IMG/VR virus record: IMGVR_UViG_2925903241_000005
Coordinates: 1-46,437 of that record
Source: a virus
Taxonomy: Duplodnaviria; Heunggongvirae; Uroviricota; Caudoviricetes
Strand: one strand, 5' to 3'
Length of the DNA: 46,437 nt
Positions 44,898 through 45,262 of the stretch are shown here, piece by piece. Position numbers and translations under genes: made by a program. Position 1 is the stretch's first letter. Each line of letters opens with the position of its first letter. Below the pieces are notes generated by a model. That model was given only the letters and a program-made list of their open reading frames with translations. It searched no databases and was not told where the DNA came from.

Positions 44898-45262
44898 GTG
44901 ATGTAGTTCGAGGACAAACTGAAACGTATTATTGATAACAGTCGCGATAACGTTGCCTGCCCGTATATCGTTCACCGTATACCGAGCGTAATAACAAACG
45001 CAGTAAAGAGGTATCCGCACCTGCCTATCTTAGCCATACTTTTCATTGCCCCGTGATTCGTTAGGCTTGTGTAATAATTTGACGATGGAGCTGCGCCCCC
45101 ACATTCCACAAAATACGCGCACTAGCTGCATTTTGTTTGATAAACAGGGAGTAGACCACAAGGGCTCATAGCCCACAGCGACGCGAAATCAACGAAAATT
45201 TATACGCGGAACCATATGATTGGGTAATGCTTCCGCACGGTGAAATTAAATACAATGCATAA
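44898..45262 (+). pseudogene. degraded integrase 3'-end remnant
   Basis: Nucleotide sequence is colinear with the last about 360 bp of int (for example aaacgcagtaaagaggt, ttgataaaca, gcgatgcgaaatc shared) but has no intact ORF. Confidence 0.6.

What the first reader, a model, noticed from the sequence alone, without database searches (positions are those of the whole stretch)
44898..45262. Second, degraded copy of the integrase 3' end downstream of the cargo gene
About 360 bp colinear with the end of int (roughly three quarters identical by eye, no intact ORF) lies 1.2 kb beyond the intact int, on the same strand. This could mark a tandem or replaced older prophage at the same attachment locus, or insertion of the DUF2971 cassette by recombination that brought a new int 3' end. 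It also brackets where att should be sought.
Basis: seen in the sequence. Interest (0 to 1): 0.5.

Follow-up and report, generated by a model that had tools for sequence, protein, structure and literature searches.

The report
Dead integrase fragment inside a prophage
The 365-bp stretch is a real but long-dead tail end of a second phage integrase gene, a scar left when two "cargo" gene modules were stacked between the integrase and the attachment site of an E. coli prophage; it is ordinary and almost certainly has no function.

Summary
Window 44898-45262 is colinear with the last ~385 nt of int (43336-43719). Identity is 65-73% depending on gap handling (z=32 against shuffles). It has about seven indels and no ORF. 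NCBI's PGAP pipeline already annotates it as an integrase pseudogene.

It is not the edge of the prophage and does not bracket att. The whole element lies between tRNA-Pro proL and yejO of E. coli. It is flanked by a perfect 54-bp repeat of the proL 3' half, and both copies lie outside the window. No att copy separates int from the remnant.

Related phages carry either int-DUF2971-attP or int-hypA-hypB-attP. Here the two modules are stacked. The remnant, its terminator, hypA, hypB and the attP arm align as one block with the second type. The remnant is therefore what is left of the integrase that once served hypA-hypB.

The int-attP gap is a cargo hotspot, and int 3' ends co-vary with the cargo.

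Its "tandem prophage" and att-bracketing ideas are not supported.

One point stays unexplained: four independent remnants start within about 25 nt of each other.

The parts
42541..43719 (+). Intact tyrosine integrase gene (lambda-Int type, with an arm-binding N-terminus). This is the working int of the prophage.
   Evidence: ORF and PGAP CDS. Pfam hits to Arm-DNA-bind_1 and Phage_integrase. Homologues of 88-92% identity sit at the same proL-yejO site in other E. coli.
43336..43719 (+). 3' third of int (codons ~268-394), the part that is homologous to the remnant. This is also the part that varies between otherwise near-identical int genes.
   Evidence: Alignments. Mosaic pattern: 98-100% identity to L005/L006 over nt 1-700 but 65-81% over nt 900-1185.
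43857..44813 (-). Cargo gene 1: DUF2971 protein, a candidate anti-phage gene (PADLOC PDC-S31). It converges on int.
   Evidence: Pfam DUF2971 E=1.8e-9. PADLOC PDC-S31 E=3.5e-22. phrog_1762. Homologues of 81-83% aa identity lie directly after int in L068, L070 and L076.
44814..44897 (.). AT-rich region upstream of DUF2971, ending at the joint with the remnant.
   Evidence: No significant similarity to int nt 650-805. Only marginal similarity to the DUF2971-to-arm spacer of L070 (z=2.3). In L070 and L048 the same position abuts the attP arm motif TGGGGAAAA.
44898..45262 (+). Integrase 3' remnant (pseudogene), corresponding to int nt ~800-1185. Stop codon at 45260-45262.
   Evidence: PGAP pseudogene. 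Its last codons (EIKYNA*) and the downstream hairpin match the int alleles that precede hypA-hypB in L113, L117 and L091, not the current int.
45264..45293 (.). GC-rich hairpin (GGCCTCA-AAT-TGAGGCC, flanked by A and T runs) between the remnant stop and the hypA stop. Probably a bidirectional terminator inherited with the old int-hypA junction.
   Evidence: Read directly from the sequence. 88% identical to the same spot after the full-length int of L113/L091. The only Rfam match is a sub-threshold stem-loop hit.
45297..45680 (-). Cargo gene 2a, hypA (127 aa, phrog_5176). Weak, sub-threshold HEPN hint.
   Evidence: Homologues of 95% aa identity lie directly after full-length int in L113, L116 and L117.
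45670..46437 (-). Cargo gene 2b, hypB (255 aa, phrog_17809). Weak TPR-like hits. The attP arm and attR core follow about 0.3-0.5 kb beyond the window end.
   Evidence: Arm at window-equivalent 46745-46875 and core at 46876-46929.

Best explanation
The remnant is a non-functional scar. In this family of lambdoid phages that integrate at proL, the gap between the int stop codon and the outermost arm-type site of attP (motif TGGGGARAAAC) is a slot for accessory 'cargo' genes. One ancestor had int'-hypA-hypB-attP and another had int-DUF2971-attP. A recombination event joined the right edge of the DUF2971 module to about nt 800 of int'. The joint itself shows no sequence homology; the left crossover was probably homologous and lay further upstream. 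That event deleted the first two thirds of int' and stacked the two cargo modules: int-DUF2971-[remnant of int']-hypA-hypB-arm-core. The intact upstream int now serves the attP that lies 3.2 kb downstream, and the phage integrates at proL as one unit. The leftover 3' third of int' has no promoter, no start and none of its N-terminal domains, and it has been decaying since. Shown: the homology, the decay, the att boundaries, the colinearity with int-hypA-hypB-attP modules, the existence of both single-cargo arrangements, the cargo slot, and the co-variation of int 3' ends with cargo. Inferred: the order of events, the type of recombination at the joint, and the absence of any function.
For: - The homology and the decay are real, and PGAP calls the stretch a pseudogene.
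- Comparison with the empty K-12 site shows that the insert is bounded by a perfect 54-bp direct repeat of the proL 3' half. One copy lies about 275 bp left of the window and the other about 440 bp right of it.
- No core lies inside the window, and there is only one arm, next to hypB.
- The block from the remnant through the terminator, hypA, hypB, the arm and the core aligns as a single colinear block with L113, L091, L117 and L116 at 82-87% nt identity. In those loci a full-length int occupies the remnant's place.
- The remnant's last codons and hairpin are of that int type, not of the current int.
- DUF2971 homologues lie directly between int and the arm in L068, L070 and L076.
- The slot holds 0-30 bp in about 25 loci and 0.8-3.8 kb in about 25 others, always ending at TGGGGARAAAC.
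- Among int pairs that are >=95% identical over nt 1-700, the 17 same-cargo pairs have a median of 100% identity over nt 900-1185. The 65 different-cargo pairs have a median of 79% (fine structure).
- The remnant occurs in 52 complete E. coli genomes, always together with this int at >=99% identity, including unrelated lineages (an O25b:H4-ST131 strain and a strain labelled ST167). It also occurs in four IMG/VR viral contigs. Strain J2 keeps part of it only because of an IS1 deletion.
Against: - Against L113/L091 the remnant is only 71% identical with 7 gap events. The adjacent terminator, hypA and hypB are 88-94% identical, and even their third codon positions are 86-88% identical. A simple recent truncation of an L113-like int does not explain this much divergence. 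Either the int' body was a different, unsampled allele, or hypA-hypB were later refreshed by recombination.
- No close intact parent (>75% identity) was found in E. coli genomes, GenBank phages or the protein collection.
- The joint shows no clear microhomology beyond about 3 nt, so the mechanism is unknown.
- Stacking is rare: none of about 106 other loci with this int family has a second int fragment downstream.
- The absence of function is inferred, not tested.
Confidence: 0.75

Rival explanations
1. Tandem or older prophage. In this reading the remnant, hypA and hypB are the stump of an earlier prophage that stayed in the chromosome at proL. The present phage would be a separate element inserted next to it, with its own right boundary between int/DUF2971 and the remnant.
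For: Degenerate proL-site relics of this kind exist elsewhere: attL, a short stretch, truncated int, cargo, attR in L026 and L048, and a similarly truncated int beside arm+core in L052. The remnant is far more decayed than its neighbours, as expected for old DNA.
Against: No att core (25-mer with 3 mismatches allowed) lies anywhere in the window. No arm lies between int and the remnant. The only repeats flank the whole unit. The remnant and this int co-occur in all 52 genomes across unrelated lineages at 99.7-100% identity. No genome carries the stump alone, except for an IS1 deletion derivative. IMG/VR viral contigs include it. A tandem double lysogen followed by a ~45-kb deletion remains possible as the historical route to the present structure, but that is the best explanation by another path.
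Confidence: 0.08
2. Site-preferential cassette insertion. In this reading a mobile unit [int nt ~800-1185 + cargo] inserts at a preferred site near int nt 800. It restores int with its own 3' end and pushes the old 3' end downstream, much as phages that integrate into icd carry a substitute icd 3' end.
For: - Four remnants of independent origin start within about 25 nt of each other: here at ~797-803, L011 at ~797-810, L012 at ~790-800, and L016 at exactly 814/815.
- Each of these remnants is closer to some full-length int than to any other remnant.
- In the E. coli census, both remnant families (2 of 2) start at nt ~800-810.
- int 3' ends co-vary with cargo.
Against: - The starts are clustered but not identical.
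- Other remnants start at nt 238, 557, 885 and 901.
- In L011 the upstream partner is a lambda-att module with no new int 3' end.
- Crossovers between intact int alleles lie at various points between nt ~650 and ~900, not at 800.
- The DUF2971 segment carries no recombinase.
- There are no repeats at the two ends, no similarity of int nt 780-960 to the attP arm, and no common upstream flank.
- L012 and L016 were picked partly by ORF length.
Confidence: 0.1
3. The fragment is kept because it does something. For example, it might supply a terminator or insulator between the two cargo modules, a regulatory RNA, Int-binding sites, or a spacer that keeps the modules apart.
For: It is 99.2-100% conserved in all carriers. 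The hairpin at 45264-45293 is retained and 88% conserved against distant relatives. The L010/L011 and L012 remnants still have open 119-aa frames.
Against: Conservation among the carriers reflects recent spread of one phage, not selection. The body of the remnant is the most diverged segment of the block, at 71% with 7 indels. There is no Rfam family at threshold and no excess of promoter-like sites. No arm-type motif lies in it. Only the hairpin, which belongs to the old int-hypA junction, looks preserved.
Confidence: 0.05

Closest known systems
Truncated integrase pseudogenes in decaying or rearranged ('grounded') prophages of Enterobacteriaceae (established knowledge; review PMC6379469 appeared in the search but was not read)
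   Same: A 3' fragment of a tyrosine integrase gene with frameshifts, near an att site, left by deletion or replacement. PGAP annotates it as such.
   Different: This one lies inside an apparently complete prophage, downstream of a working int of the same family. It separates two cargo modules and is not at the edge of a dead element.
Hotspots of variable anti-phage cargo at fixed positions in temperate phages and satellites (P2/P4 hotspots; PMC9122126, seen by title and abstract only)
   Same: A fixed slot between conserved flanks (the int stop and the outermost attP arm site) is either empty or holds different accessory genes. These include candidate or known defence genes (DUF2971/PDC-S31 here; SLATT+SMODS in L011).
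   Different: The phage family and position differ (a lambdoid int-attP gap at proL). Here exchange drags the int 3' end along, and two cassettes are stacked with a gene scar between them. Defence activity was not tested.
Displaced 3' gene ends left by elements that integrate into a gene and carry a substitute 3' end (e14 and phage 21 in icd, leaving the icd' pseudogene; own knowledge)
   Same: An intact gene is followed, after foreign DNA, by a diverged duplicate of its own 3' end on the same strand.
   Different: No att-type repeat was seen at the two ends of the duplicated segment. The inserted segment carries no recombinase. The duplicated gene is the phage's own integrase.
Lambda int-attP-b region organisation (own knowledge)
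   Same: int is transcribed towards attP. An arm-binding Int has arm-type sites on both sides of the core. Non-essential genes lie next to att.
   Different: In lambda the int stop abuts the P' arm, as it does in phage Flotzy of this family. Here 3.0 kb of cargo plus the scar separates them.

Membership tests
Tyrosine recombinase / lambda-type phage integrase gene | C-terminal catalytic motifs (HxxR, second His, Tyr nucleophile) recognisable by homology | tested here: met
   The frame-corrected translation gives ...PTFHKIRALAA... and ...AHSDAKSTKIYTRNH..., aligned with the int C-terminus. Best protein hits are integrase fragments at 70-75% identity, E about 1e-49.
Tyrosine recombinase / lambda-type phage integrase gene | A complete open reading frame with the arm-binding and core-binding domains, the first catalytic Arg and the Lys hairpin | tested here: not met
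   Homology starts at int codon ~268. The upstream 84 bp show no int similarity. There are about 6-7 frameshifts and in-frame stops, and the longest ORF is 48 aa. It is a pseudogene, not a gene.
Tandem prophage / island array at a tRNA site | A copy of the att core (tRNA 3' fragment) between the two elements | tested here: not met
   A 25-mer of the core with up to 3 mismatches gives no match in the window. An arm+core search finds a single copy to the right of hypB.
Tandem prophage / island array at a tRNA site | The elements occur independently of each other in different genomes | tested here: not met
   The remnant and hypA-hypB at >=99% identity are found only together with this int (52 genomes). 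The one exception is an IS1 deletion derivative.
Prophage cargo (moron / defence) hotspot | Variable gene content at a fixed position between conserved flanks in related phages | tested here: met
   The distance from the int stop to the TGGGGARAAAC arm motif is 0-30 bp or 0.8-3.8 kb, with unrelated contents.
Prophage cargo (moron / defence) hotspot | The cargo includes anti-phage systems | tested here: inconclusive
   DUF2971 matches the PADLOC candidate PDC-S31. SLATT+SMODS lie in the homologous slot of L010/L011. hypA and hypB have no PADLOC hit. No activity was tested.
Gene-targeting integrative element carrying a substitute 3' end (icd/e14 type) | The element has its own recombinase, and an identical core sequence sits at both ends of the inserted segment | tested here: not met
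   The only gene between the int stop and the remnant is DUF2971. The sequences at int nt ~795-805 and at the remnant start are not identical. Decay of the remnant limits this test.
Functional RNA or regulatory element | A match to a curated RNA family, or signals above chance | tested here: not met
   Rfam gives only a sub-threshold stem-loop hit on the hairpin (22 bits against a threshold of 34). There are 9 promoter-like sites against 7.7 expected.

The most novel reading that the evidence does not exclude
The int-attP cargo slot of these phages may be remodelled by a position-preferring recombination process that breaks int close to nt 800. That position lies just after an A7-8 tract that is also a frameshift hotspot, and at a short conserved palindrome (CCAATTGG / CCGATCGG). 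Under this reading, int 3' scars mark a recurrent mechanism for stacking or replacing integration and cargo modules, rather than random deletions.
Probability: 0.12. Interest if true: 0.55.

Novelty: new member of a known kind. Interest (0 to 1): 0.28.

Why it matters
The fragment itself matters little: it is an annotated pseudogene. Its context is more useful.

- It fixes the true boundaries of the prophage (proL 54-bp repeats, both outside the window).
- It shows that the gap between the int stop and the first attP arm site is a cargo hotspot in a widespread family of proL-integrating lambdoid phages.
- It gives a worked example of two cargo modules being stacked rather than swapped.
- It flags two accessory modules as candidates for anti-phage or other lysogen-benefit functions: DUF2971/PDC-S31 and the hypA-hypB pair.
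- It shows that the last ~300 nt of int travel with the cargo. This matters for anyone typing prophages by integrase sequence.

Tried and rejected
- **Internal att site.** None was found: the core search gave 0 hits and ARAGORN found no tRNA in the window.
- **Close intact parent of the remnant.** None was found. E. coli genomes give at most ~68% outside the carriers, apart from one record in the 80-90% band that was not followed up. GenBank phages give ~72% integrases only. The protein collection gives at most 75%, all fragments.
- **Short 119-200-aa integrase ORFs as further remnants.** P0007, P0011, P0014 and P0021 turned out to be frameshifted full-length genes. Only P0001 (L016) and P0017 (L012) were true truncations.
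- **Pseudo-att site at int nt ~800.** There is no inverted-repeat core architecture by eye. The resemblance of some left flanks to the proL anticodon arm (CCGT|CATG) is 4-8 nt and was not tested beyond that. Dropped as numerology.
- **Homology between the attP arm and int nt 780-960** as a driver of unequal crossing-over: z<=1 in 30 comparisons.
- **Shared upstream flanks among the four remnants, or flank similarity to the arm:** not above shuffles, except one marginal pair (ours vs L011: 28 against a shuffle maximum of 26).
- **Extension of the remnant upstream into 44814-44897** (an apparent 'RHKIQ' against 'RQKVQ' match): not significant.
- **Arm-type motif inside int:** only A-run matches.
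- **Rfam and promoter/terminator scans:** nothing above threshold.
- **Literature searches** for this site and arrangement found nothing specific.

Full report
**Observation.** Window 44898-45262 is colinear, on the same strand, with the last ~385 nt of the intact integrase gene (int, 42541-43719).
- MAFFT gives 65% identity (238/364) with 21 gap columns.
- A gap-tolerant local alignment gives 72.9% over 328 positions. It scores 92 against 19 +/- 2.3 for shuffles, z = 32.
- Translated with frame corrections, the stretch reads as an integrase C-terminus with HxxR, the second His and the Tyr. That reading needs about six frame changes, crosses stops and lacks 15 nt.
- No ORF over it exceeds 48 aa.
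- It ends at a TAA (45260-45262) that corresponds to the int stop.
- PGAP annotates the same stretch in a complete genome as a frameshifted integrase pseudogene that lacks its N-terminus.

**Where the window comes from and where att is.** The window is 100% identical to a lambdoid prophage of E. coli (for example strain Ec-050) that lies between tRNA-Pro proL and yejO.
- In K-12 this site is empty: proL and yejO are 102 bp apart.
- Comparison with K-12 shows that the whole insert is flanked by a perfect 54-bp direct repeat of the proL 3' part (CATGGGGTGTCGGGGGTCGGAGGTTCAAATCCTCTCGTGCCGACCAAAAATCCC).
- One copy is in proL itself, about 275 bp left of window position 1. The other lies at window-equivalent 46876-46929, about 440 bp beyond the window end.
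- There is no further copy of the core in the window and no tRNA.

So int, the DUF2971 gene, the remnant and the two hypothetical genes to its right (called hypA and hypB here) all lie inside one att-bounded element. The remnant does not bracket att.

**The int-attP gap is a cargo slot.**
- About 130 bp to the left of the core is conserved in all relatives. It begins with the motif TGGGGARAAAC, which recurs on the other side of the core and is probably an arm-type Int site.
- In phage Flotzy and about 25 other loci the int stop lies 0-30 bp from this motif. In about 25 others, 0.8-3.8 kb of unrelated genes sit in between.
- Related E. coli prophages at proL carry different genes there.
- int genes that are 98-100% identical over nt 1-700 fall to 65-81% over nt 900-1185.
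- Among pairs with >=95% identity in the 5' 700 nt, same-cargo pairs have a median of 100% identity in the 3' 290 nt, and different-cargo pairs have a median of 79%.

Cargo is therefore exchanged by recombination with one crossover inside int, and the int 3' end travels with the cargo.

**What the remnant is.** Both single-cargo arrangements exist on their own.
- DUF2971 homologues (81-83% aa) lie directly between a full-length int and the arm in L068, L070 and L076.
- hypA-hypB homologues (93-95% aa) lie directly after a full-length int in L113, L116, L117 and L091. More distant ones occur in L015, L020 and L063.
- Our block, from the remnant through the terminator hairpin, hypA, hypB and the arm to the core, aligns as one colinear stretch with L113 and L091 (82-83% nt). 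L117 and L116 match at 86-87% up to where their contigs end, within hypB. In those loci the int 3' end sits where our remnant is.
- The remnant's last codons (EIKYNA*) and the hairpin after it are of that int type, not of the present int.

The remnant is therefore what is left of the integrase that belonged to the hypA-hypB-attP module. In our phage an int-DUF2971 module has been joined to about nt 800 of that older int. This removed the older int's first two thirds and stacked the two cargo modules. The DUF2971 protein matches a PADLOC candidate defence family, PDC-S31. hypA and hypB belong to phage protein families of unknown function.

**It travels with the phage.**
- The remnant occurs at >=99% identity in 52 complete E. 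coli genomes, always with this int. These include unrelated lineages (for example an O25b:H4-ST131 strain and a strain labelled ST167) and hosts. It also occurs in four IMG/VR viral contigs.
- The only genome with part of it and no int is an IS1 deletion derivative.
- No genome has the int-DUF2971 module without the remnant.

This argues against a chromosomal stump of a separate older prophage. A tandem double lysogen followed by a large deletion remains a possible historical route to the same structure.

**What does not fit neatly.**
- Against L113/L091 the remnant is only 71% identical with 7 gap events. The hairpin, hypA and hypB are 88-94% identical, and even third codon positions are 86-88% identical.
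- The remnant body is about equally far (65-73%) from every int sampled.
- No closer intact parent was found in E. coli genomes, GenBank phages or the protein collection.

Either the older int had an unsampled allele body with only its tip shared with L113, which would be consistent with the mosaicism seen, or hypA-hypB were refreshed by later recombination. Either way the scar is old compared with the recent spread of the phage.

**A possible pattern in the break point.** A second family of int 3' remnants exists in about 48 E. coli genomes (L010, L011). It lies in the b region of a prophage at the lambda attB. It is followed by SLATT+SMODS genes and then a relic proL-type arm+core. This is the same architecture as here, after an integration-module swap. 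Its homology to int begins at nt ~797-810.

Two more remnants were found through short ORFs:
- L012 in Klebsiella, 95% identical to the int of L100, starting at nt ~790-800;
- L016, 99.6% identical to L078, starting exactly at nt 814/815.

Ours starts at ~797-803. Each of these remnants is closer to some full-length int than to the other remnants, so they arose separately. Their upstream flanks are unrelated, apart from one marginal score between ours and L011.

Other remnants start at nt 238, 557, 885 and 901. L012 and L016 were picked partly because of ORF length, so the clustering (4 of 8 within about 25 nt, and 2 of 2 families in the E. coli census) is suggestive only.

The region lies just after an A7-8 tract where frameshifts recur (L015, L025, L081). 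It also overlaps a short palindrome. I found no homology between this region and the attP arm, no arm-type motif in it, and no convincing pseudo-core. I leave this unexplained.

**Comparison with known things.**
- The fragment is an ordinary integrase pseudogene of the kind annotation pipelines flag.
- The slot resembles the cargo hotspots described for P2 and P4 (PMC9122126, title and abstract only), but at a different position in a different phage family.
- The layout resembles the displaced icd 3' end left by e14 and phage 21. However, the defining features of that mechanism (a recombinase in the insert and identical cores at both ends) are not met.

**Verdict.** The feature is real and is explained as a recombination scar inside the prophage. 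It is of low intrinsic interest. It has useful by-products: exact att sites, a defined cargo slot, the linkage of the int 3' end to cargo, and the CRISPR-targeted hypA-hypB module.

Noticed in passing
window 45827-45859 (in hypB) and 45411-45443 (in hypA): E. coli type I-E CRISPR arrays hold perfect 33-nt matches to these two cargo genes. One is a spacer in the ygcE-queE array of K-12 derivatives (DH5alpha and others), matching hypB. The other is in strains SCU-113 and ES6, matching hypA. For the K-12 spacer the repeat-spacer boundary was read. Both protospacers are flanked by ATG, which from my own knowledge is a functional I-E PAM. So the hypA-hypB module has been met as invading DNA.
   Followed up: partly
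window 45297-46437: hypA (127 aa, overlapping hypB by 11 nt) has a weak, sub-threshold HEPN hit (E=0.099) and contains the string RAYYGAYH, which resembles an Rx4-6H motif. hypB (255 aa) has weak TPR / 'TPR-sensor' hits. The pair recurs as a unit after int in several phage lineages (L113, L091, L020, L015). It may be a two-gene accessory system, but this is not shown.
   Followed up: partly
window ~43305-43325 (int nt ~770-790, CAAAAAGTACAAAAAAAGG): An A-rich tract with an A7-8 run in int. Three otherwise full-length homologues (L015, L025, L081) are frameshifted at exactly this point (aa ~258-263). It is either a slippage-prone spot or a common sequencing error site.
   Followed up: partly
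L010 4967-5366 and L011 4968-5367, arm relic at 7112-7328 (E. coli ESY002 and 82.0312): About 48 E. coli genomes carry another int 3' remnant (open 119-aa frame), followed by SLATT and SMODS genes and a relic proL-type attP. In strain 82.0312 (L011) the block lies in the tail-fibre-proximal 'b region' of a prophage at the lambda attB site (ybhB side). This looks like an integration-module swap that left the old int-cargo-attP module behind.
   Followed up: partly
L003 (E. coli J2) 7288-8330; equivalent to window 1-44967: In strain J2 an IS1 sits between the DinI-like gene next to attL and position 44968 of the remnant. Almost the whole prophage is gone, but the rest of the remnant, hypA-hypB and attR remain.
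   Followed up: yes
L006 8459-8536 (E. coli GZM7): PGAP annotates a 78-nt 'tRNA-Pro' at the right (attR) end of a related prophage, but ARAGORN does not call it. It may be a hybrid or variant tRNA copy at attR.
   Followed up: no
window 43345-43352 (int nt 811-818, CCAATTGG): The Pro-Ile-Gly codons of int form an 8-bp palindrome. In 9 of 13 alleles inspected, the third positions of the Pro and Ile codons change together so that the palindrome is kept (CCAATTGG, CCGATCGG, CCTATAGG). The alleles are related, so this is only a hint.
   Followed up: no
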